Shown here: positions 1 through 13,423 of the stretch, in pieces
How positions within the stretch are numbered: the stretch's first letter is position 1
How the letters are laid out: the number at the start of each line of letters is the position of its first letter
NCBI GenBank assembly: GCA_937907045.1
Contig: CALCTU010000032.1
Coordinates: forward strand, 1 to 49,167
From: an uncultured Alphaproteobacteria bacterium
GTDB taxonomy: Bacteria > Pseudomonadota > Alphaproteobacteria > Rickettsiales > UBA6187
DNA: 49,167 nucleotides
Reading direction: 5' to 3'
Program-made: the position numbers and the translations under genes
Notes under the pieces: model-generated
What the model was told of the DNA's origin: nothing
The model's database searches: none
Seen by the model: the letters and a program-made list of their open reading frames with translations, nothing else

Positions 1-273
1 ACTATCAAATTTATGAATGGTACCGTCGAGTTCTCCAACATAGATATTTCCTGTACTATCAAAGGCGATATCTCGTGGTCCAGAATCAAACGTAATATTA
101 CCTGCCACTTTACGGTCCATGGAGTTTGATGAATCTAATAGTAATAAAATGTTGGCTTTAACACCTGCACCGGTTCCGCTTCCGATAGGAGCAGATTTAA
201 CTACGCTTTGGGCATAACTAACCGAGCAAAACATGGTCGTAAACAAAACACATATGGCAAGTTTTAGCTTCAT
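1..273 (-). CDS. pilY1: PilY1-like tip adhesin, paralog C; only the N-terminal 91 codons are present (gene runs off the left edge)
   Basis: Not in the ORF track because it is edge-truncated. Minus-strand ATG at 273..271 is preceded by AGGAGAGG. My translation is MKLKLAICVLFTTMFCSVSYAQSVVKSAPIGSGTGAGVKANILLLLDSSNSMDRK...DIAFDSTGNIYVGELDGTIHKFDS. This parallels the N-termini of the two complete PilY1-like ORFs: signal peptide, APIGS..G..KANxLLLLDxSxSM strand, first NHL-type blade. Confidence 0.75.
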   Translation of the reverse strand, partial: MKLKLAICVLFTTMFCSVSYAQSVVKSAPIGSGTGAGVKANILLLLDSSNSMDRKVAGNITFDSGPRDIAFDSTGNIYVGELDGTIHKFDS

Positions 274-323
274 GGTTCCTCTCCTGGTTATTTATATTAT
301 TACTATTAAAATTATAAGTTGGT

Positions 324-797
324 TTATTTGTTTTTGTGCTCAACGATAAAGCGCTCAAAATAGCCTTTTTTCAAGGTTGCTGATGAGTAAAAAAAGTGAT
401 TAGCACCAACATCCCAGCTTGTATTAAAATAATCTTTTAAGTGATAGTCGGGATTTGGTTTGTTGGGGACTGTACCTAATTTTTCTTCTATAACAGTTAG
501 TATTTCACCAACCGCTTTCTTGTTTGTAAAGACAACCTGTTCGAGTTTATTTTCTTTAAAAGTTAATTTCATGAAAATGTTTCTAGAAAATTCAGGGCAA
601 AAATGGTAGGCCCTCTTTTCAAATGTACCTTCTTTTTGATGGAGAATATGCTCCACGTCATCCTCAAGCGAAATGCCAAAGGCTGGAAATGCTGCTTGAG
701 GGTTTTTTCCAAGTGGAAGGTTTTCCAGTTGGCATGCTAGTGCAGGAGCTGCAACCAAAGCAAGCCATGTTGTTATAAGTGATAAGTAGCGTAACAT
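324..797 (-). CDS. Small secreted Cys-containing protein, paralog P1 of a 4-member family of unknown function
   Basis: 157 aa with signal peptide ending ALA|C. It shares with the ORFs at 4987, 9239 and 9979 a Cys right after the predicted cleavage site, a second Cys ~45 aa later, a (L/I)xF..(N/D/Y)xL block and the KPNPDY motif. A G6 Shine-Dalgarno-like tract lies 9 nt upstream of the ATG. The ORF ends 50 nt upstream of PilY1-C. Confidence 0.7.
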   Translation of the reverse strand: MLRYLSLITTWLALVAAPALACQLENLPLGKNPQAAFPAFGISLEDDVEHILHQKEGTFEKRAYHFCPEFSRNIFMKLTFKENKLEQVVFTNKKAVGEILTVIEEKLGTVPNKPNPDYHLKDYFNTSWDVGANHFFYSSATLKKGYFERFIVEHKNK

Positions 798-826
798 TAT
801 ATAACTCCCCCCAATGAATTATAATA

Positions 827-1321
827 TTAGTTAAATTGCAGAGATACTACTGCCTCAATTGATCGTACAGAATTACGTGGACCGCTGGCCGATGATTCTA
901 CTTCAAAATATTCTTTTTGTCTCAAATTTGCAGTAGAATTATACTCACCGCCAACATTACCAATTTCGTTACCTATACCACCATCGGCAATAGCCTCTGA
1001 ACCAAGTGCAGTGATTGTGCAGTTATAGCTGTAGTCGTCAAGACCAGAAGCGGTGAGTGTTTCGCCGGATACAAGAAGGCTAGATAAGTCAGCAGGGTCA
1101 ATACTGGTGGCAGGTGAGAGTGGATCAACTTCTAATGTTGCTTTAAATTCATCAATACATGATTCTGTATAGTGAAAAACGGATGAATCGATTCCTTTGT
1201 ATGAGGCTGCCTCGTTCTCGCTGTTTGAGATGCGAATAAGACCAACACCAAGTAGGTTCATCACAATGAGCATGAGTAATGCTGTAAGCAATACATTTCC
1301 TTCTTGTCCACTTTTTCTCAT
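827..1321 (-). CDS. pilX: Type IV pilus minor pilin-like protein PilX
   Basis: 164 aa. The N-terminus MRKSGQEGNVLLTALLMLIVMNLLGVGLIRISNSENEAAS matches the PilX N-terminal pattern (QxG..L...L..L.....LG). It sits inside the minor-pilin/PilY1 gene string. Confidence 0.65.
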   Translation of the reverse strand: MRKSGQEGNVLLTALLMLIVMNLLGVGLIRISNSENEAASYKGIDSSVFHYTESCIDEFKATLEVDPLSPATSIDPADLSSLLVSGETLTASGLDDYSYNCTITALGSEAIADGGIGNEIGNVGGEYNSTANLRQKEYFEVESSASGPRNSVRSIEAVVSLQFN

Positions 1322-1328
1322 GATCTTT

Positions 1329-1349
1329 ACTGAAGTAAAATACTTCAGT
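1329..1349 (-). promoter_or_regulatory. 9-bp perfect hairpin between a GGGGG SD-like tract and the pilX start codon
   Basis: Arms actgaagta (1329-1337) and tacttcagt (1341-1349), 3-nt loop. The minus-strand RNA reads GGGGG-hairpin-AAAGAUC-AUG. Confidence 0.4.
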
Positions 1350-1431
1350 CCCCCTTTGATATAATTACTATAAGTTGATTATATCACAGAATTATATCAA
1401 ATCAAAATATTTTTCTCAACCATAGGTATCT

Positions 1432-4400
1432 TTATTGGTGGTGCTCATACCATGATTCTACGCTAACTAGCGGATTTTCAATTGAACGTGGGGTTCCAAC
1501 GATAAGGTTACCCTGTTTTACATAATTACTTGGGAGTGTAATTGAGGAATCATCCGTGCTTATACCCATATATATTTTGCCTTTATAGACAACAACTTCG
1601 GTTGGAATACCCTTTCCTAATGAGGTTGTTTTGTGAATTTGGCCACATTCAAAATAATGTTCGGTAATACTTGCTGTACCTACATTACATATATCATTAC
1701 TTGATGAGGGGGTATAGCGTGGAACAATAATATCACCATTCCATATTGTTAATTTTGAAGTTACTTTTTCATTTGCGCCCAAATTTAGGTACCACCCTTG
1801 TGTAAAGTCCGAAGTCACACAGCTTGATGATTGTTCGTCGCTATTATAATGCATAAAGGGAGTGATATCTTGTAAATTTGATGGTGAATAAGCGGTGTCT
1901 AGTGGGGTATATCCAGGAAAATCAGTATCTTTAAGAGCTATGACCCGATTTTGCAAAGAAGTACGTTTAGCATTAAGATTCATAAGGTCTCCGCTACCAA
2001 AAAATTGATATAATGTACCAGAATGGTCAAGAGCAGAGGCTGTTTGATGGAATGTATATCTGCCATTATCATGTGTTGACTGACTTGAAAATACACGGGT
2101 TTTTTCGTATAATGTACCTGAATTTGTGAAATTAATTTTCCACAAGATACCCTCTAAATCTGTCATATATACCAATGCACCATATTGGTTGAAATTTGCC
2201 GTTGAGTCAGCAGTAATAACGGACATCGTAGAGGCAGATGCATTGGTAATGCCATTATTAGCAATAGTGTCGCCAAGTATAATATTTTGTAAGATGGCAC
2301 CATTATTTTCAAGGTCAATCGCATATATTCTTGCGCCAAATGATTGATTGATATTGGTGTGAAAACCACTGCCAATCAGTGCAACCCATTTATTTGTGTT
2401 TTCATCAATGGGTATGTTTACAATAACCGGTGTGGACCATGCTTGCCCCAATGATCGAAAATCCATGGATGCATCAAGAGTTATATCGTCTTGGTTTAGA
2501 TGGTATACTTGACGTTCGCCTTGATCATTCCAGTAGGCGATATGATTTATTTCTCTGGAGAAGGTAAATAAATGTTGTGGTGCAAGTGGATTGGTTACAT
2601 CTAGTGCATAGTATGAGTGTCCTCCTTGCCTCAGGCCGCCCATTAATATGGTTCGCCATTGTCCATCATAAAAAATATCTTTTACTGTTATAGGGCCATC
2701 AACACCAAAAATACTATTACTTGAAGCATTAATACTGCTGATGACTCCTGGAAAATTAGGAATAACACTTGGGGGGATGAATCCCCATAATTCTTGGCCT
2801 GTATCAAAGTCAAATGCATGTAACATACCACCGTTGGAACCAACATATACTACGGATCTTCGTTCTAGGCACGTCGGGGTGCCACATATTCCGCTTTGCT
2901 GAAAATGATGGTAGTTGTGACTAAATCGGTAAAATTCTTCGGAGTGGATATCTGCGCTTGAGTTAGCACCTGCTTTTGGTGGGCCTACTACTACTGCGCG
3001 GGAATGATAAATATCAGCTAATTTCCAGCGTTCAGAAGGCATCAATGTGGTACCTTGGCTGTCAATACCGGTAGGATATTCGTTATAGATATCTTTTCCG
3101 CGAATAAAACGAATAATATTATTTGCAGTATCATCCGATAATGTGCCGGTATGACGTTCACCGAGTAATCCTTTAAGAAGAGAAGTATTAGCGGTAGTAA
3201 AATTATTGAGTGTTGCATCTGCCATAAGTCCATTATGTGCAGTCCAGAGTTTGCGGTTATCTGCTGCAGTTGTATTGAGTAATTCACCTGCGTCCCATTG
3301 AAGATCCCCGAGCAACCCTTGTTCGTCAAGGGCGTATTTTTTCAAATGACCCTTCCATTGATGATTATCTTGATAGTGAAAAACAGATTGAATGAGATGG
3401 TCTGAGCCTTGTGTTGAAGGTACGATGGTAGGAGCGCTAAATGACAATGATGCATTGATTGCTTGCTGAACAAAGCTGTTTACGGCAGATACAATATTTG
3501 CTTCATTGGTAGCTAAAATGGGTGATACATCTTGGGTTCCGCCTGCTAACGATAATTGATTATAAAAATTAGTAGCAATGGGGTCGTCAATAAATGTCCC
3601 TAGTACGTATGTTTTAATATTGTGGGTGTTTAATAGATCAGTAGCAGTTGCTTCGGCTTCAGCTGCAACAACTTCGCGAGCTACATGTTGTCGTACCCAC
3701 CGTCCGTCTGTAATGACAATAATAATAGTTTGCTGACAGGCTGCATCTGGAACTAAAGGTGAGTTTGGGTCATCATTAAGGTAATCACTTGCTAGGTCCA
3801 TTGCTGCTGCCACGTCTGTTGCAAAATGTAAATCGATATCATTATTGAGAAAATCAATAATTTGATTGGCACCTGTTTCTCCTACTGGAACAGTTAGCCT
3901 TGCTGTGGCATCCCAGGTTATAAGGCCAAAATTAGCGCTAGAGGTTAATTCACTATTGGATACAACTGCACGTAAAGCATTTGCGGCTCTATCAATACGA
4001 CGAAGCGTAATGGGTATTACGGCGTTATCGCTTAAGTTGATGACTCTGTCGTTGCCTGCGTCTGCTACCCATATATTACCGTTATTGTCTTTTGAAAGGG
4101 CGTAGGGGTTGGTTAGGCCTACATTATATCGTGTCACATAACTGCCATTATTGCGATATTGGTATATTCTATCGGTATCGATACTTCCTACAAAAATATC
4201 ACCATTATCGGCAATCTCGATACCAATGGCTTTGTATGCTGTTCCATTGCGTTTGACGGTTGGAATGCTGTTTAGCAATAATCCTTGAGAATTGTATTTG
4301 CCGACGAAGCGATGTTGGTCATGTCGGTGAGTAAGGTAGATGTGGTCATTACTATCAATTGCAATATAGGTAGCTTGGGGAATATGATTGGGCCAAGAGT

Positions 4401-4938
4401 GAATAAAATTTAGGTTACTATCATAGACATCAACGCTTCTGTTATTGTTGATAACGTAGACGTTATTATTACTGTCAATATCAACGGCACGTATATTAAC
4501 AATATTGACGTATGTATCTAAATTTCCATCAGCAGTGAACCGTTGTAATCTTCCTCTATCTTTATCGGCAACATAAAGCCTGTCGTTACTGTCAAAAGCA
4601 ATATCAACAGCACGTGTCAGGCGGTCGCTTTCGTTAAAGTCTGTTTGATTTTCTCCACCAATATAATGGGTAAAAGTTCCGGATGCGTCATAGACATGGA
4701 TAACACCATCATTTTGAGCAATATAGGCGTGATCCTGGCTGTTAAACTCAACATTACGAGGATTGTCTGTGATTTGACCGGTAGTACGGTTCATGGAATA
4801 AGATGTATCCAGTAGCAACAATATGTTGGCTTTTGCAGTTGTGCCGTCAGAACCAATGGGTGCTGGCTTTGCAAACAATGCTATGGGTGCAAATATCAAC
4901 AAGCCAAGAATGATAAAACATATTAATTTCTGGAACAT
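1432..4938 (-). CDS. pilY1: PilY1-like type IV pilus tip adhesin, paralog B (signal peptide, vWA with NHL-propeller insertion, C-terminal PilY1/PilC beta-propeller)
   Basis: 1168 aa. MIDAS strand LLLLDTSYSM. Six NHL-like blades, e.g. VDIAFDSNDRLYVADKDRGRLQRF and GIEIADNGDIFVGSIDTDRIYQY. vWA continuation FGLITW...IIIVITDGRW. PilY1-type C-terminal motifs HQWKGHLKKY, RWKLADIYHSRAVVVGPP and VVYVGSNGGMLHAFDFDTGQELWGFIPPS. Confidence 0.85.
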   Translation of the reverse strand: MFQKLICFIILGLLIFAPIALFAKPAPIGSDGTTAKANILLLLDTSYSMNRTTGQITDNPRNVEFNSQDHAYIAQNDGVIHVYDASGTFTHYIGGENQTDFNESDRLTRAVDIAFDSNDRLYVADKDRGRLQRFTADGNLDTYVNIVNIRAVDIDSNNNVYVINNNRSVDVYDSNLNFIHSWPNHIPQATYIAIDSNDHIYLTHRHDQHRFVGKYNSQGLLLNSIPTVKRNGTAYKAIGIEIADNGDIFVGSIDTDRIYQYRNNGSYVTRYNVGLTNPYALSKDNNGNIWVADAGNDRVINLSDNAVIPITLRRIDRAANALRAVVSNSELTSSANFGLITWDATARLTVPVGETGANQIIDFLNNDIDLHFATDVAAAMDLASDYLNDDPNSPLVPDAACQQTIIIVITDGRWVRQHVAREVVAAEAEATATDLLNTHNIKTYVLGTFIDDPIATNFYNQLSLAGGTQDVSPILATNEANIVSAVNSFVQQAINASLSFSAPTIVPSTQGSDHLIQSVFHYQDNHQWKGHLKKYALDEQGLLGDLQWDAGELLNTTAADNRKLWTAHNGLMADATLNNFTTANTSLLKGLLGERHTGTLSDDTANNIIRFIRGKDIYNEYPTGIDSQGTTLMPSERWKLADIYHSRAVVVGPPKAGANSSADIHSEEFYRFSHNYHHFQQSGICGTPTCLERRSVVYVGSNGGMLHAFDFDTGQELWGFIPPSVIPNFPGVISSINASSNSIFGVDGPITVKDIFYDGQWRTILMGGLRQGGHSYYALDVTNPLAPQHLFTFSREINHIAYWNDQGERQVYHLNQDDITLDASMDFRSLGQAWSTPVIVNIPIDENTNKWVALIGSGFHTNINQSFGARIYAIDLENNGAILQNIILGDTIANNGITNASASTMSVITADSTANFNQYGALVYMTDLEGILWKINFTNSGTLYEKTRVFSSQSTHDNGRYTFHQTASALDHSGTLYQFFGSGDLMNLNAKRTSLQNRVIALKDTDFPGYTPLDTAYSPSNLQDITPFMHYNSDEQSSSCVTSDFTQGWYLNLGANEKVTSKLTIWNGDIIVPRYTPSSSNDICNVGTASITEHYFECGQIHKTTSLGKGIPTEVVVYKGKIYMGISTDDSSITLPSNYVKQGNLIVGTPRSIENPLVSVESWYEHHQ

Positions 4939-4986
4939 GACGTGGTACTTTCATTCAATCGTGTGTAATTATTGTTTATTTTCCTG

Positions 4987-5457
4987 TTAATTTGGTTGAA
5001 TAATGAGTGTTTCTTTGGCAGTGCCTTTAATACGATCAGACACATACATGATGTCTAGTTGGTTGTTATGTTGCCAACGTGTTCTGTAATAATAACTAGC
5101 CGAGTGATCTTTATTTGGCCTTTTTGTTGTTTGGCCAAAATGTTTTTCAGCAATGCTTAGGATTATATCACTATGATGCTTGTAGTGAATTGTCATGCCA
5201 ATGAGGCTATGATCTTCGAATGTAAGGGAAATAGTGCTTCCAAAAGGAAACACATCACAATAACGATTGGCATGAAATTGGAGTTGTCCAGAGCCCTCCT
5301 GCAGAAGCGCTTCAACTTCTTCTTCGTCGCTATCAAGGCTAAAATAACTTACCACATATGCGGGTGGTTGTTGAAATGGTATGGTTACAAAATCACATGC
5401 ATATGCTGAAGTATAGAGGCATAGAAAGCTTAAAAATGTCACAAATTTAACTAACAC
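4987..5457 (-). CDS. Small secreted Cys-containing protein, paralog P2
   Basis: 156 aa with GTG start and signal peptide ...SAYA|C. Second Cys in NRYCD; RPNKDH motif equivalent to KPNPDY. The ORF ends 48 nt upstream of PilY1-B. The leader motif TGGGGGGAAAGGTG is shared with P4. Confidence 0.65.
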   Translation of the reverse strand: MLVKFVTFLSFLCLYTSAYACDFVTIPFQQPPAYVVSYFSLDSDEEEVEALLQEGSGQLQFHANRYCDVFPFGSTISLTFEDHSLIGMTIHYKHHSDIILSIAEKHFGQTTKRPNKDHSASYYYRTRWQHNNQLDIMYVSDRIKGTAKETLIIQPN

Positions 5458-5488
5458 GGTGTGAAAACACCTTTCCCCCCATATGTGA

Positions 5489-5517
5489 ATTATAGCACAT
5501 ATTGAGAGGAGTTTAAA
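5489..5517 (-). promoter_or_regulatory. Sigma70-type promoter candidate for P2/pilY1-B (TTTAAA-N17-TATAAT with TGn extended -10)
   Basis: The minus strand reads TTTAAActcctctcaatatgTGcTATAAT. The -10 is at 5489-5494 and the -35 at 5512-5517, located between the pilY1-A stop and the P2 start. Confidence 0.4.
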
Positions 5518-5565
5518 TAAAAATACACAATCTATGGTTTATATTTGTGAGGTGGTGTGTAAGTG

Positions 5566-8500
5566 CTACGGATAAAGCTCTTGCCAGCTTTCCACGGTGA
5601 CGAGCACATTTACGGCAGCTGAAGGATCGCCAACAATAAGATTATCAATCTTCTCAAAGCCTGCAGGTGTGGTGGCTAATGGATCTGCAGAACTAATGCC
5701 TGCGTATAATTTTCCTTTATAAATTACAACCTCTGATAATACGCCAGGTCCAAGATTTGTTTGTCTTTCAACCGTACCACACGTAAAGTGATGTTCACTG
5801 ATGCTTGCGTTACCAACCTCACACGCACTTGATCCTGTGGTGGGTGTATATCGTGGCACAAACACATAGCTATTATTTACTGTTAGTGAAGCGGTTACTT
5901 TGTCTGTACCAATGTCAAAATACCAACCTTGAGCAGTTGAGTCACCTGTACATGAGGTCCCGGTTTCTGTTGCGCTGGTGACGTCATTGAGGTCGCTATC
6001 GGTAAGTGTAGAGCTGGTTGTAATTAATGGAAAGTTTGCGTCTTTGATTGCATGTACACGGTTACTAATAGCGCTGTCCGAATTATTCAGCTCAAGCATG
6101 TCTCCAGTACCATAGAATAGGCGTAATACCCCCGATGAGCTAAGTGTTGCCGCTGTCTGGAAGTACGGTACTCTGCCGTTAGTTTTTGTTGTATTTGTAT
6201 CATAGAGTTCGCCGTCGTTATATAACGTGCCCGAATCAGTGAAATTTATCTTATGTAATATACCGTCAAGGTCTGTAAAGTAAGCGATAACACCTGTATG
6301 TGTAAAGTTTGATGTGGAGTCTCCATTAATCACAGAGACAGTTTGAGGTACTGCATTATTGATGCTATTGCTCGATTTCGTTTCACCAAAGCTAATAGTC
6401 TCAATGATTTTACCACTTTCAATACTGCTTTCTAAGTCAACAACATAGAGGTTAGAACCATAGCTTCCGGAGCCTGAATTCATACCGCCGCCAATAAGTG
6501 CGACCCACCTTGTTCCGCCTAATTGGTCTGGAATAAGGCTAATAACAGGCTCTGACCAGGCCTCTCCAAGTCCAGAATAATCAAGGTTGGTAGGTACAGG
6601 AGTAGGGGCGCCGCTCAAAGTTGAGTAGGTGTAATGGACTCCACTAGCGTCCCAGTATGATATTTGGCCATGGGTTAAAGATTCATTGGCAAATGTAAAT
6701 AAGTGCTGAGGTGCGTCTGGGTTGGTTACATCTAACGCAAAATAGGACTTACCACCTTGTCTAAGGCCACCAATTAATACGGTACGCCATTGGCCTGAAT
6801 AGTAAATATCTTTGACAGTTAACAGGCCATCAACGCCATAAATTGATTCACTTTCGCCTGCGATAGATGATATTGCCTGATTAAAATTAGGAATAACACT
6901 TGGCGGAATGAATGCCCATTTTTCTTCGCCTGTTTCATAGTCAAAGGCATGTAACATACCCCCATTAGATCCAACATAGACAACGGTATCTCTTTGGGTG
7001 CATGCAACCCCGCAAGATGATCCTTCTTTAAATGACTGGTAGCCGTTTGCACTACGATAATATTGTTCGGTGTGGGTAGGCATATTTGAATCGATAACCG
7101 CATTAGGTGGTCCTACAACCACTGGTCTAGAATTATATATGTCAGCCAGTTTCCAGCGATCACCGGTGGCTAAGGTTGTTCCGGCTGAATCGATCCCTAA
7201 AGGATATTCGTTATAAACATCCTCTCCACGAATAAATTTTATTAGATTCTCAGAAGCAGTAGTATCCACAGTTGCTAGGCGTGAATGGAAATAGCTCACA
7301 TTATCGGCAATAAAGTTATTATAATCTACCGCATAGCTTACGCCACTATGTACGGTCCAGATTTTACGTTCACTAGAAGTAATGTCATTGAGTTGTGCTC
7401 CTGCTTCCCATTGTTGTGCTCCAATACTTCCAGTATTTGTGAGGGCGTATTTTCGGAGTTGTCCTCGCCATTGATGGTTTGGAATATAGTCAAACACTGA
7501 ATGTAAAATATAATCAGTGCCAGCTCCAGATGGGACAATGGTTGGTGAGCTAAACGCAATGGATTGGTTAATAGCATCTGCAATATACGTATTAATGGCA
7601 CTAATAATTTCAGAATTATTATCTGCAATGAGTGGAGATAATGGATCAGTACCACCAGCCACAGAAAGGGTTGTATAGTAGGGCATAGCTTCGGCTAATT
7701 GTGTCTCATCTAGGAAGGCAGCCAGTACATAGGTGGGGATATTATCATTATCATAAAGATCTTCTGCAATAGCATCGACGCTTACTTGTGTTGCTTCCCT
7801 ACAAGAAGTACTTGAGCAGCCACCCGATGCATTGGTCCACATGCCATCGGTGATTACAATATTGATCGTTTGCTGGCAGCTAATGGTACTGTCTATGGGA
7901 GTTGGTTTGCCCGAAATATTATTATCATAATAATTTCTGGCAAGTTCCATTGCTGAAGTGGGGTAGGTACCAAATTCAAGGTAGCTTGTTGGGTTTGCTA
8001 ATACCAAATCCATAAATGCACTGATTTCTGTTGCGCCAGTTGGTGAAATTTCAACGCGTAACTCTTCATCACCGTCAGCTGCCCAGGTAATAAGACCAAA
8101 ATTGACTTTGGTGTTTAATGCACTATCGGCGACCACTGCCTGAATTGCCTGTGCTGCTTTTTCAATACGCATTTGGGCAACTGGTGGAAGGAATTCGGTT
8201 GGATTGTCAATGTTAATAGCAAAGTCAGCAGGATTACCAGGATGTTCATCACTTACCCATATATCGCCATTCTGATCTTTAGATAATGTTTTGGGGGCAT
8301 CCAACGCAAGACTAGAATTTTTGGTAAGAAAGTTGCCGGCGCTATCATAGATATAAATAGAGTCTTTATTTTCACCAGCAATATAAATATTGCCATTATC
8401 AGCAATCTCAATACCTGTTGCAAGAAACTTACCTGAAGAAGGGTCTTGAAATGTAAATGACAGTAACTCATTACCATTTGTGTCAAATTTCCTGATATAT

Positions 8501-9189
8501 CGATCTCCACCAGATTTATCAGGTACGTATATATAGCCATCATCATCAACGGCTAGGTAATTAGTACTACTATGAAAACTTGTAGACCAGTCACGTAAGT
8601 GATTTAAGTCCGTATCATATACTGCGACATTGGTATCAAAAGATCCGTTACCATCTGCCTTCATAACATATAGTAGGTCATTTGGTTTATCGATATCAAT
8701 TGATTTAAGGCCGTTTATATTATTAATATAAGACATAGATCCAGTGGTAGTGTCTTCGTAAAGGCGTGATGCAGGAATCTTTTGGACCCGTTTTTTGTTT
8801 GATTTTGTATCTGCAATATATAAGTTGCCTTCTGCATCAAATGTCATATCGATAACTTCGCCAATTTTTGCACTATTTGCAAAGTCCCACTGATTTGTAC
8901 CGCCAACTTGTCCTACAAAATCACCCGATGGATCGTAAATGTAGATAGTGCCATCGTCCTGAGCAATGTATGAATATCCATCTGAGTCAAATTCTATATC
9001 ACGAATTTCTTCTACTTCTTGTCCTGTGATTCTGTTCATTGAGCGTGATACATCAAGTAACAACATTACATTGGCTTTTGTGCCGCCAGATCCTGACCCA
9101 AGAGGTGCTGTTTTGGTAGCCATGACTTGTGTGCTTAATAAGCATAGACAAATACATAGATACGTTGATAGTTTTTGTAATACATGCAT
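5566..9189 (-). CDS. pilY1: PilY1-like type IV pilus tip adhesin, paralog A (same architecture as paralog B)
   Basis: 1207 aa. MLLLDVSRSM; NHL-like blades (VIDMTFDAEGNLYIADTKS, GIEIADNGNIYIAGENKDSIYIY, LSKDQNGDIWVSDE); FGLITW...NIVITDGMW; HQWRGQLRKY; RWKLADIYNSRPVVVGPP; VVYVGSNGGMLHAFDYETGEEKWAFIPPS. SD TAAGGA lies upstream of the ATG at 9189. Confidence 0.85.
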   Translation of the reverse strand: MHVLQKLSTYLCICLCLLSTQVMATKTAPLGSGSGGTKANVMLLLDVSRSMNRITGQEVEEIRDIEFDSDGYSYIAQDDGTIYIYDPSGDFVGQVGGTNQWDFANSAKIGEVIDMTFDAEGNLYIADTKSNKKRVQKIPASRLYEDTTTGSMSYINNINGLKSIDIDKPNDLLYVMKADGNGSFDTNVAVYDTDLNHLRDWSTSFHSSTNYLAVDDDGYIYVPDKSGGDRYIRKFDTNGNELLSFTFQDPSSGKFLATGIEIADNGNIYIAGENKDSIYIYDSAGNFLTKNSSLALDAPKTLSKDQNGDIWVSDEHPGNPADFAINIDNPTEFLPPVAQMRIEKAAQAIQAVVADSALNTKVNFGLITWAADGDEELRVEISPTGATEISAFMDLVLANPTSYLEFGTYPTSAMELARNYYDNNISGKPTPIDSTISCQQTINIVITDGMWTNASGGCSSTSCREATQVSVDAIAEDLYDNDNIPTYVLAAFLDETQLAEAMPYYTTLSVAGGTDPLSPLIADNNSEIISAINTYIADAINQSIAFSSPTIVPSGAGTDYILHSVFDYIPNHQWRGQLRKYALTNTGSIGAQQWEAGAQLNDITSSERKIWTVHSGVSYAVDYNNFIADNVSYFHSRLATVDTTASENLIKFIRGEDVYNEYPLGIDSAGTTLATGDRWKLADIYNSRPVVVGPPNAVIDSNMPTHTEQYYRSANGYQSFKEGSSCGVACTQRDTVVYVGSNGGMLHAFDYETGEEKWAFIPPSVIPNFNQAISSIAGESESIYGVDGLLTVKDIYYSGQWRTVLIGGLRQGGKSYFALDVTNPDAPQHLFTFANESLTHGQISYWDASGVHYTYSTLSGAPTPVPTNLDYSGLGEAWSEPVISLIPDQLGGTRWVALIGGGMNSGSGSYGSNLYVVDLESSIESGKIIETISFGETKSSNSINNAVPQTVSVINGDSTSNFTHTGVIAYFTDLDGILHKINFTDSGTLYNDGELYDTNTTKTNGRVPYFQTAATLSSSGVLRLFYGTGDMLELNNSDSAISNRVHAIKDANFPLITTSSTLTDSDLNDVTSATETGTSCTGDSTAQGWYFDIGTDKVTASLTVNNSYVFVPRYTPTTGSSACEVGNASISEHHFTCGTVERQTNLGPGVLSEVVIYKGKLYAGISSADPLATTPAGFEKIDNLIVGDPSAAVNVLVTVESWQELYP

Positions 9190-9238
9190 GATCTTACTAG
9201 TCCTTACTATGGGTCTCTATTTTGATGTACTTACGTTA

Positions 9239-9739
9239 TTATCGTTTTACAAAGGGAGTAATCATTACAGATTCTTGTATATAGGCATGATGATTCCTGG
9301 TGAGATAGCGTATATCCACAGTGTCTTCTTGTGGCCATGTAGAAGAAAAACTGTTTCTAGATGGGTGGTCAGGATTGGGTTTGTTTTGAAGTTCCCCTAA
9401 ATGTTCCTCTACCTGCTTAAGAAGTGGTAATTTCTCATCTGGCTTGCTTTTGCGTAAGAATACTACAGAAGATAGTTTATATTCGGTAAAGTTAAGATGA
9501 ATGACTACCGATTCATCCATGTTTGAACAATATGGCTTGGCATCGATACGATGAACACCATTTCCTTGCTCATCCAGCTCTTTTAAAATTTCAGAAGAAT
9601 GGTCGTAGCTATTATAATGTAGTAATACAGAGTTAGCTTTGTCGCCAATTGGTGTGTAGGTTAGTTTACACGCATAGCTGTTGCATGCAAATAAAACTAG
9701 GCCCAAAAAAATACTGGTTAGTCCCTTTTTAGTAATCAT
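9239..9739 (-). CDS. Small secreted Cys-containing protein, paralog P3
   Basis: 166 aa with signal peptide ...NSYA|C, second Cys in KPYCS and a KPNPDH motif. The ORF ends 49 nt upstream of PilY1-A. A near-consensus promoter lies upstream. Confidence 0.7.
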   Translation of the reverse strand: MITKKGLTSIFLGLVLFACNSYACKLTYTPIGDKANSVLLHYNSYDHSSEILKELDEQGNGVHRIDAKPYCSNMDESVVIHLNFTEYKLSSVVFLRKSKPDEKLPLLKQVEEHLGELQNKPNPDHPSRNSFSSTWPQEDTVDIRYLTRNHHAYIQESVMITPFVKR

Positions 9740-9784
9740 AAAGGCCCCCTTTTGCCTTTTTGAGTGTACGTATACTCATGGTTG

Positions 9785-9813
9785 ATTATATAACATAAAA
9801 TGTGCAGTGTAAA
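9785..9813 (-). promoter_or_regulatory. Near-consensus sigma70-type promoter for P3/pilY1-A (TTTACA-N17-TATAAT)
   Basis: The minus strand reads TTTACActgcacattttatgttaTATAAT. The -10 is at 9785-9790 and the -35 at 9808-9813, ~45 nt upstream of the P3 ATG. Confidence 0.5.
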
Positions 9814-9928
9814 GTAAGTTATTCAACTTATAGTGTGTTTTTGTGAGTATAATTGTTACGACGTATTCGTTATTTCTATTTTCAATGCTTGTTAGTGTAG
9901 ATGTAAAATAGATGCTTTGGTTTTGTTG

Positions 9929-9972
9929 TCCTGATGGTATTTCGTAAACTCATGCACGAAATACCATCAGGA
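9929..9972. terminator. 16-bp perfect inverted repeat (hairpin) directly after the P4 stop codon
   Basis: Arms tcctgatggtatttcg (9929-9944) and cgaaataccatcagga (9957-9972), 12-nt loop. The T-run (gaattttta) is on the plus-strand side only, so for the minus-strand operon it is a U-tract-less stem. Confidence 0.5.
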
Positions 9973-9978
9973 GAATTT

Positions 9979-10467
9979 TTATTGTTGGCTAATGATAATA
10001 CGTTCATTGTCAAGATGGGCGTATCCTTGGACCATAAAGCGTACCAATAGGTTGCTGTCGGTAGCAACAACGGTGTTATAATATTTTCGTATCCGATAGT
10101 CCGGATGTGGTTTTTGTTTTAATTTACCAAAATTTTGTTCCATTGTTGTTACAAGGGTATCTTGTTTTTCTGTATTAATTTGATGTGAAATCATAATGCC
10201 TTTTAGTGCATTATTTTCAAATAACCCAGAAATAGAAGAGTTCTTTGGTAGATTAGTACATGCATTGTTTGCTGAAAATGTAATTGTTCCAGATCCAGAA
10301 ACAAGCTGTTTTTGTGCTTGTGGTGAAGTATGTTGTACGTCAAAATAATGTAATACATCATCGAGTGGACTACCAAAGGGCAGTTGGTTTAGATCACAAG
10401 CATATGATGATGAATGAAAGCTAATAAAAATGAAAATGCTAAGAATGCGTGTATAATAATGTCTCAC
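9979..10467 (-). CDS. Small secreted Cys-containing protein, paralog P4 (no PilY1 directly downstream)
   Basis: 162 aa with GTG start and signal peptide ...SSYA|C. C-DLNQLPFG resembles P1 C-QLENLPLG. Second Cys in NNACT; KPHPDY motif. It is followed by a 16-bp perfect hairpin. Confidence 0.65.
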   Translation of the reverse strand: MRHYYTRILSIFIFISFHSSSYACDLNQLPFGSPLDDVLHYFDVQHTSPQAQKQLVSGSGTITFSANNACTNLPKNSSISGLFENNALKGIMISHQINTEKQDTLVTTMEQNFGKLKQKPHPDYRIRKYYNTVVATDSNLLVRFMVQGYAHLDNERIIISQQ

Positions 10468-10521
10468 CGTTTAGTATCACTTTCCCCCCACAGCGCTCTT
10501 AACGGAATAAAAGCTTTGCCC

Positions 10522-10550
10522 AGTATAATTAAGGATGGGTGAGTTGTAAA
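10522..10550 (-). promoter_or_regulatory. Sigma70-type promoter candidate for P4 (TTTACA-N17-TATACT)
   Basis: The minus strand reads TTTACAactcacccatccttaatTATACT. The -10 is at 10522-10527 and the -35 at 10545-10550, in the 160-nt gap after pilW. Confidence 0.4.
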
Positions 10551-10629
10551 GAAAATAATCAACCAAAAGTATGCAAGTGAGGTTAACGGTGGCGTGAGGC
10601 TAAGTATTAACGCATTACAAAAGAGGCTT

Positions 10630-11346
10630 TTAGTTGTTTCTTAGCTGAACGGTGGTATCGAAACTTTGTCTAAGATAATTGTCTGTGAATGTAAAGTTTG
10701 TGTTCCCAAAATGGTGCCAGGTGTTTCTGCTATAGGTTCCTTGGCTGCGCTTTAATGGGTTTGGACTACGAAGTACTAACGTGATATCAACAACGTTAAT
10801 AAGCTGTGGATTTGCAGGATCGTCAACACGTATCTGAAATGCATCAACATAGTCAGTTACTACGCCAGCCGTGCCAAGTGTATAGTCGGTTGCATCATCA
10901 GGGTTGGCAGTAGTGGTGGTATCTCTGCGAACCATTAATTGCCTGGTTGCTCCTGGCAAGGCAGTGCTGTCTGCAATGGAATAAAGTACACGATTGCGAG
11001 TGACTACGTCAGTGATAGGGTCTTTGGTGTCATAATAAATAGTGATTTCATCCCAATTACTTCCAGCTGTATCTGTATCAATAACAATGGGAGTGGAAAT
11101 ATCGCCTAGTATCGGATCAAAATTGGTATTATCAAGCAACGTATTGCCAGCCATCCGTATATCGCGAATGATAAAATTAATTGTTGGTAAGCCATTAATT
11201 TGTAAGAATGATTGGTTTTCCATGCGATCATGGTAGCGTGCAATAATAATATATGAGGCAAATGATCCCATCACTACAATTGATCCTACTGCTACAGCCA
11301 ACAGTAATTCCAACATTGTAAAACCATGCTGTTTTTGCCTACTCAT
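10630..11346 (-). CDS. pilW: Type IV pilus minor pilin PilW
   Basis: Prepilin leader and cleavage motif MSRQKQHG|FTMLELLLAVAVGSIVV, then the IRDIRMAGN block typical of PilW. I prefer the ATG at 11346 over the track start at 11376; it overlaps the pilV stop by 8 nt. Confidence 0.75.
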   Translation of the reverse strand: MSRQKQHGFTMLELLLAVAVGSIVVMGSFASYIIIARYHDRMENQSFLQINGLPTINFIIRDIRMAGNTLLDNTNFDPILGDISTPIVIDTDTAGSNWDEITIYYDTKDPITDVVTRNRVLYSIADSTALPGATRQLMVRRDTTTTANPDDATDYTLGTAGVVTDYVDAFQIRVDDPANPQLINVVDITLVLRSPNPLKRSQGTYSRNTWHHFGNTNFTFTDNYLRQSFDTTVQLRNN

Positions 11347-11899
11347 TATATATTCTCCTAAGGCTAACTTGTGCACGAGGTGGGGTTACCGGTGGATCAT
11401 TATATGCAGTTAATGTAACAATCACCACGGTACCGGCGGCGGGATTGGTAGCGTCCAGCGGTTGAGAAGTAATAGTTCTGACATTATTTGCAGAGGTGAC
11501 CATGTCACTTGATGTGGTACCAACGCCACTAGCGATGGTGACTTGGCCCTCGCCATCAAAATTATATTTCATGCGTTTACACCATTCGTACATACGTTGG
11601 TTGGGTGTAGGGTTGACTGGTGGCCCACTGCTCCAATCTCCTATTGCATTGGCGTCATCGCAACTAGTTAAGGACCCTCCAGTATAGGTACTAAGATTGG
11701 CTAGGTCGCTATCAATGATTTCATGAATTTGTTCGGCCTGTAGCTGTAGGATTTGACGCGCAGTTGCAAAGCGTGCTGAACGTTCAGAAACCATAACCAT
11801 AAGGTGGGTGCCAACAAAACCAATAGCAAGAATTACCGTTGCCACCAACGCTTCCAGTAGCGTAAATCCTGATTGTGATTGGTTTGAGGTGACTTTCAT
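11339..11899 (-). CDS. pilV: Type IV pilus minor pilin PilV
   Basis: 186 aa. MKVTSNQSQSG|FTLLEALVATVILAIGFVG matches the PilV signature GF(S/T)LxExLVA..(I/L)..G..G. Position is between fimT-like and pilW. Confidence 0.75.
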   Translation of the reverse strand: MKVTSNQSQSGFTLLEALVATVILAIGFVGTHLMVMVSERSARFATARQILQLQAEQIHEIIDSDLANLSTYTGGSLTSCDDANAIGDWSSGPPVNPTPNQRMYEWCKRMKYNFDGEGQVTIASGVGTTSSDMVTSANNVRTITSQPLDATNPAAGTVVIVTLTAYNDPPVTPPRAQVSLRRIYNE

Positions 11900-11910: not shown

Positions 11911-12429
11911 TTACTGTATTAAAATATAACCTGATGCCTGTGAAACCGAGATGGTGCGTGTTTGTGCTTCAGCAGGAGACCCTGATGCTGGTGCAAGGGT
12001 CAGCGTGGGAGTGGTACCATTTGATGTGCCATCACGATAAAAGCATAGGTCGTCATCAAAGGTAAGTTCGTATCCGGTTGGTATATTGATATCAATACTT
12101 GCCCGTGTAACATCATTAACGTTCGTTGCATTGCATGTTGTTGGTGGTGGTGTGCCGCTTTCTTGGAACAATGATACGGTCACAGTATTGGGTGTTGTAG
12201 ATGTAGCAACATTCACTCGGGTTGTAATAGCAGATGATGAAGCAACATGACGTGCATACTGAAATTGTTGTGATATTTGGTTCACGCTATTTTGGAGTGT
12301 GTTGCGCGAGCTAAACAAGCCGCTATCTTGAAAAGAGAACGTTGCCATGATGGCAATAATGGCAATGGTAATTAATAACTCAAGTAGAGTAAAGCCATTA
12401 GCGTGTTTATGGTTAGTGGTGTGCAACAT
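11911..12429 (-). CDS. fimT: GspH/FimT/FimU-family minor pilin
   Basis: Leader MLHTTNHKHANG|FTLLELLITIAIIAIMA followed by a helical segment (NTLQNSVNQISQQFQYARHVA) typical of FimT/FimU. The ATG at 12429 (or TTG at 12435) lies inside the 3' end of pilT. Confidence 0.7.
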   Translation of the reverse strand: MLHTTNHKHANGFTLLELLITIAIIAIMATFSFQDSGLFSSRNTLQNSVNQISQQFQYARHVASSSAITTRVNVATSTTPNTVTVSLFQESGTPPPTTCNATNVNDVTRASIDINIPTGYELTFDDDLCFYRDGTSNGTTPTLTLAPASGSPAEAQTRTISVSQASGYILIQ

Positions 12430-13423
12430 CCTCAAGCCTAATTATATTGTTTGCTATTAAGTAATTAACTGAATCTTCCATGGTCATCATGCCAAGTGAT
12501 TTTCCTGTTTGCATGGCGTGTTCTATTTGGAAGATTTTGTTCTCACGTATCAAGTTGGCAATGGCCACATTACATACCATTACCTCAAAAGCGGCAATTC
12601 GACCTGGTTGGTCAATACGTTTAATAAGTTGTTGTGTGACAACCAAGCGCAGGGATTGTGACAGTTGTGAACGGGCCTGGGCTTGTTGTTCGGGTGGGAA
12701 TACGTCTAAAATACGATTCACCGAGCTAGGTGCGCCATTGGTGTGTAGTGTACCAAATACTAAGTGACCAGTTTCAGCGGCAGTAAGTGCTAACGATACG
12801 GTTTCCAGATCACGCATCTCACCAAGTAATATGACGTCCGGGTCTTCACGTAAGCTTGCTTTTAGTGCACTTCCAAATGACATCGCATCTTTTCCTACTT
12901 CACGCTGTGAAACAATAGAAGTTTTACTTCGGTGAATAAATTCGATTGGATCTTCAATAGTGATAATATTTTCGTGGCGTTGCTCATTTACTCTATTTAC
13001 AATGGAAGCCAGGGTAGTAGATTTACCAGATCCTGTAGGACCGGTTACAAGTACAAGTCCATTTTTTTCATGTGTAATGTCCATGACTGCTTGTGGTAAT
13101 CCAAGCGCTTCAATGGGAGGTGCTTCGGTTTCGATTTTACGTAGTACCATTGCTGGGCCATTGAGTGTATTATATAAATTTGCCCTGAAACGAAAAAACT
13201 CAGTAGGAATGGCGAAGTCGAGATCTTTTTGGACGGCATATTGTTCTTTTTGGTCATCGTCTAAAATTTCTTGAATAAAATTCTCGACGTCTTGGCGTGT
13301 GATAAAGTCATTGGGCTGTATTTCGATAGAACCGTGCAGGCGCAGTGCAATCGGCTCGTCTGAATGAATATGAATATCCGACAAGTCGAAATTTTGAGTG
13401 TAACTGACAATTTTTTCGAGCAC
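12413..13423 (-). CDS. pilT: Type IV pilus retraction ATPase PilT
   Basis: 336 aa. Walker A GPTGSGKST, Walker B DVILLGEMRD, His box GHLVFGTLHT, and the PilT-type motif AIANLIRENK. GTG start with AGAGG SD. Confidence 0.9.
   Translation of the reverse strand: MLEKIVSYTQNFDLSDIHIHSDEPIALRLHGSIEIQPNDFITRQDVENFIQEILDDDQKEQYAVQKDLDFAIPTEFFRFRANLYNTLNGPAMVLRKIETEAPPIEALGLPQAVMDITHEKNGLVLVTGPTGSGKSTTLASIVNRVNEQRHENIITIEDPIEFIHRSKTSIVSQREVGKDAMSFGSALKASLREDPDVILLGEMRDLETVSLALTAAETGHLVFGTLHTNGAPSSVNRILDVFPPEQQAQARSQLSQSLRLVVTQQLIKRIDQPGRIAAFEVMVCNVAIANLIRENKIFQIEHAMQTGKSLGMMTMEDSVNYLIANNIIRLEDVAHH

What the first reader, a model, noticed from the sequence alone, without database searches (positions are those of the whole stretch)
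1..10467. Three tandem [small secreted protein -> PilY1-like adhesin] cassettes inside a single minor-pilin operon
Seen in sequence: reading the minus strand, the order is pilT-fimT-pilV-pilW, P4, P3, pilY1-A, P2, pilY1-B, pilX, P1, pilY1-C, and pilY1-C continues off the window. Each PilY1-like gene is preceded by a member of one small-protein family at a nearly constant distance: 49, 48 and 50 nt from stop to ATG. The three PilY1 N-termini and the two complete C-terminal propellers are clearly paralogous. They share blocks such as VVYVGSNGGMLHAFD, RWKLADIY and IPPSVIPNF but have diverged elsewhere. Established knowledge: the canonical locus (fimU-pilVWXY1Y2E) has one pilY1. Where PilY1 is multiplied (Myxococcus), whole minor-pilin sets are duplicated with it. 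Here only the adhesin plus a small partner is multiplied, while fimT/V/W/X stay single-copy. Inference: this is a cassette system supplying alternative pilus-tip adhesins, each with a dedicated secreted partner (chaperone, adaptor, cap or inhibitor). It would diversify attachment specificity.
Basis: partly seen in the sequence, partly recalled or inferred. Interest (0 to 1): 0.82.

Follow-up and report, generated by a model that had tools for sequence, protein, structure and literature searches.

The report
Tandem pilus-tip adhesin modules with partner
A marine bacterium carries three diverged copies of a two-gene unit (a small exported protein followed by a pilus-tip adhesin) in a row inside one pilus gene cluster, and the small protein proves to be an undescribed family that always sits just upstream of this adhesin type in other marine bacteria.

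Summary
On the minus strand the order is pilD-pilT-fimT-pilV-pilW, P4, P3, PilY1-A, P2, PilY1-B, pilX, P1, PilY1-C. The P-to-PilY1 gaps are 49, 48 and 50 nt.

The large genes are real PilY1 proteins (Pfam PF05567; fold match to 3HX6). Their N-terminal VWA domain has a complete six-bladed NHL propeller inserted just after the MIDAS DxSxS loop.

P is a real family with no Pfam, NCBIfam or PDB match. It is Sec-exported, has two invariant cysteines and gives a confident AF2 model.

P is not found away from pilY1. All 8 contexts looked up from the P side, and 43 adjacent pairs in total, place it directly upstream of a PilY1 of this NHL class, usually overlapping by 4 nt. The P and PilY1 trees are congruent.

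The common form is one cassette (pilX-P-pilY1). The window has a lineage-specific, old triplication plus an orphan P4. A second tandem array exists in L128.

Each gap between units holds a promoter-like site.

What P does is inferred, not shown. The closest analogue is TfcP of Myxococcus, to which P is not homologous. I rate this a new variant of a known kind, of moderate interest.

The parts
13529..14257 (-). Prepilin peptidase (PilD-like), the first gene on this strand
   Evidence: Pfam Peptidase_A24, 89 bits. It holds the same position in the single-cassette relative L196.
12413..13423 (-). PilT-like ATPase (336 aa)
   Evidence: Pfam T2SSE, 173 bits. Same position in L011, L027 and L196.
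11911..12435 (-). FimT/GspH-like minor pilin
   Evidence: Pfam N_methyl, 32.6 bits. NCBIfam GspH and prepilin-type hits, below their cut-offs.
11339..11899 (-). PilV-like minor pilin
   Evidence: Pfam N_methyl, 29.9 bits. TIGR02523 type_IV_pilV, E 4.8e-9, below its cut-off.
10630..11376 (-). PilW-like minor pilin
   Evidence: Pfam PilW 32 bits (cut-off 26) and N_methyl 30.4 bits.
10522..10550 (-). Promoter-like site upstream of P4 (TTTACA-17-TATACT)
   Evidence: 48 of 2000 dinucleotide shuffles of this gap reach the score.
9979..10467 (-). P4, an orphan P-family gene with no PilY1 after it
   Evidence: Family HMM E 3e-35. Nearest relative is P2.
9926..9975 (-). Strong hairpin just downstream of the P4 stop codon
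   Evidence: Inverted repeat I2. RNA fold -28.1 kcal/mol, z -7.2. No U tract follows on the minus strand, so it is not a canonical terminator.
9785..9813 (-). Promoter-like site upstream of P3 (TTTACA-17-TATAAT, 11 of 12)
   Evidence: 15 of 2000 shuffles reach the score. One assembly (L010) has a TA indel in its spacer.
9239..9739 (-). P3, the partner gene of cassette A
   Evidence: Family HMM E 2e-34. 49 nt upstream of PilY1-A.
5566..9189 (-). PilY1-A (1207 aa): signal peptide, VWA with nested NHL propeller, PilY1 C-terminal propeller
   Evidence: Pfam T4P_PilY1 56.8 bits (cut-off 28.1) and NHL 20.5 bits. 46% identical to B.
5489..5517 (-). Promoter-like site upstream of P2 (TTTAAA-17-TATAAT, with TG)
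   Evidence: 69 of 2000 shuffles reach the score.
4987..5457 (-). P2, the partner gene of cassette B
   Evidence: Family HMM E 4e-37. 48 nt upstream of PilY1-B.
1432..4938 (-). PilY1-B (1168 aa): the same architecture
   Evidence: Pfam T4P_PilY1 56.6, VWA_2 40.1 and NHL 31.7 bits, all above cut-off. PDB 3HX6 E 5.5e-17, and a full NHL match to TRIM2/3/71. AF2 pLDDT 82; Foldseek NHL TM 0.75-0.78 and 3HX6 TM 0.64.
1391..1419 (-). Promoter-like site upstream of pilX (TTGAGA-17-TATAAT, with TG)
   Evidence: 17 of 2000 shuffles reach the score. It shares the motif TATAATCAAC with the P3 site (repeat D7).
827..1321 (-). PilX-like (GspK-family) minor pilin, single copy
   Evidence: Pfam PilX_N, E 8.8e-5, 22.8 bits, just below the 25.5 cut-off. 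Relatives have a PilX_N gene directly before P.
324..797 (-). P1, the partner gene of cassette C
   Evidence: Family HMM E 1e-35. 50 nt upstream of PilY1-C. AF2 model pLDDT 89.
1..273 (-). PilY1-C, first 91 codons (signal peptide, VWA beta-1 and MIDAS DxSxS, start of NHL)
   Evidence: Extended to at least 883 aa by L016.

Best explanation
The repeated unit is a conserved two-gene module.

The first gene, P, encodes a small protein of about 135 residues after export. It is Sec-exported and cut by signal peptidase I, and it has one predicted disulfide.

The second gene encodes a particular class of type IVa pilus tip adhesin, PilY1. In this class the N-terminal VWA domain carries a complete six-bladed NHL beta-propeller, inserted right after the MIDAS DxSxS loop. 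The C-terminal half is the usual PilY1 propeller that docks on PilX.

In most relatives the cluster holds one module (pilD-pilT-fimT-pilV-pilW-pilX-P-pilY1-pilMN), and P is translationally coupled to pilY1. In this organism's lineage the module was duplicated long ago. The result is three modules plus an orphan P4, and the extra copies sit between pilW and pilX.

The three PilY1 proteins keep the docking half and, in A and B (the end of C was not seen), the C-terminal strand. They have diverged most in the NHL propeller. I therefore read them as alternative tip adhesins that compete for one shared FimT/PilV/PilW/PilX set, each unit being driven by its own promoter.

I take P to be a dedicated periplasmic accessory factor for its cognate PilY1. 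It would stabilise or hold the NHL-VWA head before PilY1 joins PilX. That is the role TfcP plays for PilY1.1 in Myxococcus, although P is not homologous to TfcP.

Shown: gene content, domain architecture, obligate synteny, co-divergence, single-copy minor pilins.

Inferred: what P does, separate transcription of the units, and differences in adhesion specificity.
For: Identity of the large genes:
- PF05567 scores 56.6 and 56.8 bits against a cut-off of 28.1; VWA_2 and NHL are also hit.
- 3HX6 matches at E 5.5e-17, and the NHL region aligns end to end with TRIM NHL domains.
- The AF2 model (pLDDT 82) shows beta-1 plus the MIDAS helix, then about 24 strands at residues 60-301, then an alpha/beta VWA at 314-494.
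- Foldseek gives NHL target-TM 0.75-0.78 and 3HX6 E 3e-14.

P as a family:
- 70 hits in the exhaustive profile search.
- No Pfam hit in 65 members and no PDB match by sequence or fold.
- AF2 pLDDT 89.
- 65 of 65 members have exactly two cysteines. 42 of 65 have an AxA-type site before the first cysteine, and 1 of 65 has a lipobox.

The partnership:
- 8 of 8 P-side look-ups have this PilY1 class directly downstream.
- There are 43 adjacent pairs, with a modal gap of -4 nt.
- 32 of 39 NHL-type PilY1 genes have P upstream, against 4 of 100 non-NHL PilY1 genes.
- The two trees are congruent, with Mantel r 0.775 and 0 of 5000 permutations reaching it.

The module as a unit:
- It stands alone in L026 and L030.
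- It is tandem in L128.
- The single-cassette archetype is seen in L011 and L196.

Origin and divergence:
- A, B and C form one clade, as do P1-P4.
- Identity among A, B and C is 27-39% in the NHL domain and 46-60% in the PilY1 propeller.
- The C-terminal strand LV[ST]VESW is conserved between A and B. The last ~10 residues of PilC/PilY1 complement PilK/PilX (PMC12918778).

Expression and analogy:
- Each of the four inter-unit gaps has a promoter-like site. Only 15-69 of 2000 shuffles of each gap do as well.
- TfcP is a periplasmic protein encoded directly upstream of pilY1.1, translationally coupled to a neighbouring gene of its cluster, and it stabilises PilY1.1 (PMC8833165, PMC13190605).
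Against: - No P-PilY1 complex could be predicted and there are no experimental data, so 'accessory factor' rests on position, export and co-divergence alone.
- In the window P and pilY1 are separated by 48-50 nt rather than overlapping.
- P4 has no adhesin of its own.
- Within the window the P tree does not mirror the PilY1 tree (P2 groups with P4; A groups with B). At this level of divergence that is uninformative.
- The promoter-like sites are consensus matches in AT-rich DNA.
- No terminators separate the units, so one long transcript remains possible.
- A 10-nt frameshifting deletion in PilY1-B in two assemblies shows that at least this copy is dispensable in part of the population.
- The canonical PilY1 calcium motif is degenerate, so a TfcP-like calcium mechanism cannot simply be transferred.
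Confidence: 0.55

Rival explanations
1. P is a structural part of the tip complex, either a co-adhesin or an adaptor between PilX and the PilY1 head. On this view it travels out with PilY1 rather than acting as a periplasmic helper.
For: P always lies between pilX and pilY1. It is translationally coupled to pilY1, which suggests 1:1 production. Its link to the NHL-VWA head type would also fit a protein that binds that head. An invariant Glu (E148 of P1) could be a MIDAS ligand.
Against: P has no prepilin leader or N-terminal pilin helix, so it cannot polymerise into the fibre. Published tip models need only PilI/J/K plus PilY1 (PMC12918778). P evolves faster than PilY1 (mean distance 0.86 against 0.66).
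Confidence: 0.2
2. The three cassettes are redundant products of duplication with no division of labour. Some are on their way to being lost, and P4 is the leftover of a lost cassette.
For: A 10-nt frameshifting deletion in PilY1-B occurs in two assemblies. P4 has no adhesin. Some contigs end in unmatched tails inside PilY1-B and PilY1-C.
Against: All three adhesin genes and all four P genes are intact ORFs despite about 45% (PilY1) and 22-28% (P) identity. That means long maintenance under purifying selection. Divergence is concentrated in the NHL domain. Each unit keeps its own promoter-like site and G-rich ribosome-binding site.
Confidence: 0.12
3. The P-PilY1 module works apart from the pilus, for example as a secreted or outer-membrane adhesin pair. 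Its place in the pilus cluster would then be incidental.
For: Stand-alone P-PilY1 pairs with no minor pilins nearby occur in L026 and L030.
Against: Most long loci place the module inside pilT-fimT-pilV-pilW-pilX ... pilMN. The PilY1 docking propeller and C-terminal strand are conserved. Stand-alone pilC/pilY1 genes that still serve the pilus are known in Neisseria (my own knowledge; PMC13190605 notes Neisseria as the exception to clustering).
Confidence: 0.05

Closest known systems
TfcP with PilY1.1 of Myxococcus xanthus cluster_1 (PMC8833165; PMC13190605)
   Same: Both are small periplasmic non-pilin proteins encoded immediately upstream of a pilY1 gene. TfcP is reported as translationally coupled to a neighbouring gene of its cluster, and P overlaps pilY1 in most relatives. 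Both are conserved only with one PilY1 class. TfcP stabilises its PilY1.
   Different: TfcP is a non-canonical cytochrome c. No P protein has a CxxCH motif (0 of 65). P has no detectable homology to any Pfam or PDB entry. TfcP acts through calcium binding, whereas the calcium motif here is degenerate. In Myxococcus each PilY1 comes with its own minor-pilin set.
PilC1/PilC2 of Neisseria and Kingella, and the multiple PilY1 of Xylella (summarised in PMC13190605; the Neisseria details are from my own knowledge)
   Same: Two or three diverged tip adhesins per genome. They have conserved C-terminal propellers and variable N-terminal halves. In Neisseria they serve one minor-pilin set.
   Different: Those paralogues lie at separate loci, have no dedicated upstream partner and lack NHL domains. 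Neisseria pilC switches through a poly-G tract in the coding region. No such tract is seen here.
Canonical fimU-pilVWXY1(Y2)E operon of Pseudomonas aeruginosa, with PilY1 C-terminal domain structure 3HX6
   Same: The order of minor pilins followed by pilY1. The C-terminal propeller (3HX6, E 5.5e-17). An N-terminal VWA domain with a MIDAS motif.
   Different: One pilY1 only. No NHL insert. No upstream P gene (pilY2 lies downstream and is unrelated). The canonical calcium site is present in P. aeruginosa but degenerate here. Here pilD and pilT head the cluster.
NHL-repeat six-bladed beta-propellers (TRIM2/3/71, Brat, PknD sensor domain)
   Same: Residues 50-305 of PilY1-B align over the whole domain, with Foldseek target-TM 0.75-0.78.
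   Different: Here the propeller is nested inside a VWA domain of a pilus adhesin. No paper in the searched library combines PilY1 and NHL.

Membership tests
PilY1/PilC type IV pilus tip adhesin | C-terminal PilY1 beta-propeller domain (PF05567; structure 3HX6) | tested here: met
   PF05567 scores 56.6 bits (B) and 56.8 bits (A) against a cut-off of 28.1. phmmer against 3HX6 gives E 5.5e-17. Foldseek against 3HX6 gives E 3e-14 and target-TM 0.64. For C only the first 883 aa were seen, and these align at about 46%.
PilY1/PilC type IV pilus tip adhesin | Encoded with the core minor pilins (FimU/T, PilV, PilW, PilX) | tested here: met
   N_methyl, PilW and PilX_N hits on the neighbouring genes. 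The PilX_N score, 22.8 bits, is just below its cut-off.
PilY1/PilC type IV pilus tip adhesin | Extreme C-terminal ~10-residue beta-strand that complements PilK/PilX (PMC12918778) | tested here: inconclusive
   The C-termini of A and B share LV[ST]VESW, and the wider subfamily ends in ESWxE. The interaction itself could not be modelled.
PilY1/PilC type IV pilus tip adhesin | Calcium-binding motif 1 (P. aeruginosa D-N-N-S-D-G-V-A-D loop) | tested here: not met
   In the alignment to 3HX6 the equivalent loop reads DSTANFNQY in B and DSTSNFTHT in A. The last Asp is missing. This motif is common but not universal among PilY1 proteins (PMC13190605).
VWA domain with MIDAS | DxSxS ... T ... D motif and the VWA fold | tested here: met
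   VWA_2 scores 40.1 bits against a cut-off of 27 in B, but 17.7 bits (below cut-off) in A. DTSYS / DVSRS / DSSNS and the VITDG motif are conserved. An alpha/beta region at 314-494 follows the NHL insert in the model.
NHL-repeat beta-propeller | Six NHL blades forming a complete propeller | tested here: met
   PF01436 scores 31.7 bits (B) and 20.5 bits (A) against a cut-off of 20. Residues 52-297 align to residues 18-272 of the TRIM2/3 NHL domains. Foldseek target-TM is 0.75-0.78.
TfcP-type PilY1 accessory cytochrome c | Heme-binding CxxCH motif and a cytochrome c fold | tested here: not met
   0 of 65 P-family members have CxxCH. There are no cytochrome hits in Pfam or PDB.
TfcP-type PilY1 accessory cytochrome c | Periplasmic protein encoded immediately upstream of pilY1, with translational coupling to a neighbouring gene | tested here: met
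   Signal peptide with an AxA site. 43 adjacent pairs with a modal gap of -4 nt; in the window the gap is 48-50 nt. Periplasmic location is predicted, not shown.
Type IV (minor) pilin, as a candidate identity for P | Prepilin leader with the G-F-T-L-x-E motif and a hydrophobic N-terminal helix | tested here: not met
   No N_methyl hit in P1-P4. The N-termini are ordinary Sec signal peptides ending in AxA-C.
Bacterial lipoprotein, as a candidate identity for P | Lipobox [LVI][ASTVI][GAS]C | tested here: not met
   Only 1 of 65 members fits. Two members have a residue between AxA and the Cys.
Phase-variable pilC (Neisseria type) | Homopolymer tract in the 5' coding region whose length varies | tested here: not met
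   No run of five or more G or C lies in the 5' coding regions of PilY1-A, B or C. The G5-6 runs are ribosome-binding sites. They are identical in every contig that covers them, since the only indels seen lie elsewhere.

The most novel reading that the evidence does not exclude
P is the founding member of an undescribed class of dedicated periplasmic partners. On this reading it is required for a widespread marine class of pilus-tip adhesins (NHL-in-VWA PilY1), found in genomes labelled Rickettsiales and also in SAR11/Pelagibacteraceae. P would act as a pseudo-ligand or cap for the MIDAS/NHL head. The tandem modules in this organism would be switched independently, from their own promoters and by indel variants, to change what the pilus tip binds.
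Probability: 0.25. Interest if true: 0.72.

Novelty: new variant of a known kind. Interest (0 to 1): 0.55.

Why it matters
PilY1 decides what a type IV pilus sticks to and whether it assembles at all. Only one accessory protein for it (TfcP) has been characterised, and reviews list only VWA and DUF4114 as N-terminal domains.

This locus shows a third head architecture, an NHL propeller nested in VWA. It also shows an uncharacterised partner that is almost always upstream of that architecture (32 of 39 genes with room upstream). The pair occurs in uncultured marine alphaproteobacteria, including single-cell genomes labelled Pelagibacteraceae, where the role of pili is still unclear.

The tandem array is a natural experiment. 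Three diverged head-plus-partner pairs share one minor-pilin base, so cognate specificity of the partner and competition for PilX can be tested directly.

Tried and rejected
- **Word-indexed search with the P alignment.** It found only the window's own proteins. The exhaustive profile search was needed.
- **Genome scans from the P side.** A scan with P1 alone found nothing.
- **Homologue search with the full-length PilY1 alignment.** It was swamped by unrelated NHL-repeat proteins and gave no PilY1 relatives.
- **Extending the contig leftwards.**
  - The 144.8-kb NCBI contig that holds these genes could not be fetched.
  - A homologue search with the PilY1-C middle region returned no PilY1-C protein.
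  - The extension therefore stops at 883 aa of PilY1-C (L016). By analogy with L196, pilMN should follow, but this was not seen.
- **Structure prediction.** P-PilY1 complex prediction was not possible with the tools.
- **Searches that found nothing for P.**
  - Fold search of P against PDB: best TM about 0.3, nothing at E <= 0.001.
  - Profile search against PDB sequences: none.
  - PHROGs: none.
  - Rfam on 1-15000: none.
- **Identities rejected for P.** A lipoprotein, a pilin, and a cytochrome.
- **Explanations rejected for the array.** An assembly artefact was rejected. So was recent gene conversion or a silent-cassette system like Neisseria pilS. The longest DNA repeats between cassettes are 47-162 nt at only 74-86% identity, and all copies are full-length genes with start codons and ribosome-binding sites.

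Full report

Yes. The ORF list and translations give, on the minus strand:

| Gene | Coordinates |
|---|---|
| PilT-like ATPase | 12413-13423 |
| FimT/GspH-like pilin | 11911-12435 |
| PilV | 11339-11899 |
| PilW | 10630-11376 |
| P4 | 9979-10467 |
| P3 | 9239-9739 |
| PilY1-A (1207 aa) | 5566-9189 |
| P2 | 4987-5457 |
| PilY1-B (1168 aa) | 1432-4938 |
| PilX | 827-1321 |
| P1 | 324-797 |
| PilY1-C (first 91 codons) | 1-273 |

- The stop-to-ATG distances are 49, 48 and 50 nt, as stated.
- A prepilin peptidase at 13529-14257 precedes pilT on the same strand.
- P1-P4 align end to end at 22-28% identity and share two invariant cysteines.
- PilY1-A and B are 46% identical, and the quoted sequence blocks are present.
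- Contigs from other assemblies and samples reproduce most junctions at 99.5-100% identity. With paralogues this diverged, the array is not an assembly artefact.
- Contig L016 extends PilY1-C to at least 883 aa.

**2. What are the large genes?**

They are real PilY1 proteins with an unusual head.

- PF05567 scores 56.6 and 56.8 bits against a cut-off of 28.1. B also passes VWA_2 and NHL.
- Against PDB sequences, B matches the P. aeruginosa PilY1 C-terminal domain 3HX6 (E 5.5e-17). Residues 50-300 align over the whole NHL domain of TRIM2/3/71.
- The AF2 model of B has pLDDT 82. It shows beta-1 plus the DxSxS segment at 37-50, then about 24 strands at 60-301, then an alpha/beta VWA body at 314-494, then the C-terminal propeller.
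- Foldseek recovers NHL domains (target-TM 0.75-0.78) and 3HX6 (E 3e-14, target-TM 0.64).

So a complete six-bladed NHL propeller is nested in the VWA domain, directly after the first MIDAS loop. The canonical calcium loop of P. aeruginosa PilY1 is degenerate here. A 2026 survey states that only vWFA and DUF4114 N-terminal domains have been described in studied PilY1 proteins (PMC13190605). No paper in the searched library mentions both PilY1 and NHL.

**3. What is P?**

- It has no Pfam, NCBIfam or PHROGs match.
- The word-indexed search found only the window's own proteins. The exhaustive profile search found 70 proteins of about 160-250 aa.
- All 65 aligned members have exactly two cysteines after the signal peptide. 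42 have an AxA-type signal peptidase I site just before the first cysteine, one fits a lipobox, and none has CxxCH.
- The AF2 model is confident (pLDDT 89). It has no convincing PDB neighbour by fold (best TM about 0.3) or by profile.

P is therefore an uncharacterised, Sec-exported small alpha/beta protein. It is not a pilin, a lipoprotein or a cytochrome.

**4. Is P tied to PilY1?**

Very tightly.

- Starting from eight P-family members across the whole E-value range, every contig has a PilY1 of this class directly downstream.
- Scanning all fetched loci with family HMMs gave 43 adjacent P-PilY1 pairs, with a modal gap of -4 nt, an ATGA overlap.
- Among PilY1 genes with room upstream, 32 of 39 NHL-type genes have P, against 4 of 100 non-NHL genes.
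- The P and PilY1 trees share their major clades. Mantel r is 0.775, reached by 0 of 5000 permutations.
- P diverges faster than PilY1 (mean distance 0.86 against 0.66).

The hosts are uncultured marine bacteria. NCBI labels the closest ones 'Rickettsiales bacterium', and several are Pelagibacteraceae single-cell genomes.

**5. How unusual is the tandem array?**

- The common form is one cassette, as in L011 and L196: pilD-pilT-fimT-pilV-pilW-pilX-P-pilY1-pilMN.
- The pair also occurs alone, away from minor pilins, in L026 and L030.
- In the window the extra units [P4], [P3-A] and [P2-B] sit between pilW and pilX.
- A, B and C form one clade, as do P1-P4 with P4 nearest P2. The expansion is therefore lineage-specific but old.
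- One other contig, L128, has pilX-P-PilY1-P-PilY1 with split ORFs. L125 has two adjacent PilY1 genes with no detectable P between them.

Tandem arrays are thus rare but not unique. Short contigs limit this count.

**6. How might it work?**

- *Divergence among A, B and C.* Identity is lowest in the NHL propeller (27-39%) and highest in the PilY1 propeller (46-60%). The C-terminal strand is shared between A and B (LV[ST]VESW). Recent work shows that the last ~10 residues of PilC/PilY1 complement the PilK/PilX sheet and license assembly (PMC12918778). One PilX could therefore accept any of the three adhesins.
- *Candidate promoters.* Each of the four inter-unit gaps has a sigma-70-like site scoring 10-11 of 12. 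Only 15-69 of 2000 composition-preserving shuffles of each gap do as well. The P3 and pilX sites share the motif TATAATCAAC.
- *Hairpin.* A hairpin of -28 kcal/mol follows the P4 stop codon. It has no U tract on the coding strand.

My reading is that there are four transcription units feeding three alternative tip adhesins onto one minor-pilin base. This part is inference.

For P, the best analogue is TfcP of Myxococcus. TfcP is a periplasmic protein encoded just upstream of pilY1.1 and specific to that PilY1 class, and it stabilises PilY1.1 (PMC8833165, PMC13190605). P shares the position and the export signal, and in relatives it overlaps pilY1. It shares no homology and no heme motif. Whether P is a chaperone, a cap on the MIDAS/NHL head or a tip subunit could not be tested.

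**7. Variation seen in passing**

- Two assemblies carry a 10-nt deletion that frameshifts PilY1-B.
- One assembly has a TA indel in the spacer of the P3 promoter-like site.
- Two contigs end in unmatched AT-rich tails just inside PilY1-B and PilY1-C.

These may be real on/off variants or contig-end artefacts.

**8. Verdict**

The cassette and dedicated-partner ideas hold up well on genomic evidence. The functional claims are still untested.

Multiple PilY1 proteins per genome, and an accessory protein for PilY1, are both known. The new points are the partner family, the NHL-in-VWA head and the tandem layout on one minor-pilin set. I classify this as a new variant of a known kind, with interest about 0.55.

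Noticed in passing
window about 3309-3318 (PilY1-B); loci L022 and L023: Two metagenome assemblies carry a 10-nt deletion (GGGTTGCTCG, flanked by GGG) that frameshifts PilY1-B at about residue 540. The window and other contigs have the intact gene.
   Followed up: partly
window about 9792; locus L010: A TA indel lies in the 17-nt spacer of the strongest promoter-like site, upstream of P3. It shortens the TATATA run and would change the -35/-10 spacing.
   Followed up: partly
window 1 (L014:4937-5007) and window about 4916 (L002 tail): Contig L014 diverges after codon 91 of PilY1-C, exactly at the window edge. Contig L002 diverges after codon 8 of PilY1-B. Both run into AT-rich tails that match nothing else fetched. 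These could be deletion variants or contig-end chimeras. Several assemblies also break near these points.
   Followed up: partly
window 9926-9975: An 18-20 bp hairpin lies just after the P4 stop codon (RNA -28.1 kcal/mol, z -7.2). It has no U tract on the coding strand, but TTTTTATT follows it on the opposite strand. Its function is unknown.
   Followed up: partly
window 807, 1350, 5475, 9745, 10484 (minus strand): Five of the ten runs of five or more G on the minus strand of the whole 49-kb window are the ribosome-binding sites of P1, pilX, P2, P3 and P4. A G6 run also precedes the pilin gene at 14377. In P2 and pilX a small hairpin lies between the G run and the start codon.
   Followed up: partly
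window 14377-14871 and 14858-15367 (+), 15404-15781 (+): Two pilin genes with N-terminal methylation motifs are transcribed divergently from the pilD-pilT-minor-pilin cluster. A single-domain response-regulator-like ORF follows them; it was read from the translation only, with no domain search. L196 has the same divergent pilin pair.
   Followed up: partly
window 26086-34854 (+): A 2922-aa protein with 16 matched stretches of RTX calcium-binding repeats (HemolysinCabind, 311 bits). It is likely a second large surface or secreted adhesin in the same window.
   Followed up: no
window 36831-39074 and 39077-41308 (-); L030:7039-8832: Two tandem TPR plus GT41 (O-GlcNAc-transferase-like) genes. In L030 and L031 a gene of the same type sits directly upstream of a stand-alone P-PilY1 pair, which may link it to adhesin or pilin glycosylation.
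   Followed up: no
L128:8751-18115; L125:3-5717: There are other arrays. L128 has pilX-P-PilY1-P-PilY1 with each PilY1 split into two or three ORFs. L125 has two adjacent PilY1 genes 286 nt apart with no detectable P.
   Followed up: partly
L046, L056, L064, L073, L084, L095, L108, L179, L191: In delta-, beta- and gammaproteobacterial genomes and metagenome contigs, two non-NHL PilY1 genes lie roughly 2.5-5 kb apart on one strand, with no P gene. This would fit duplication of whole minor-pilin sets, but the intervening genes were not inspected.
   Followed up: no
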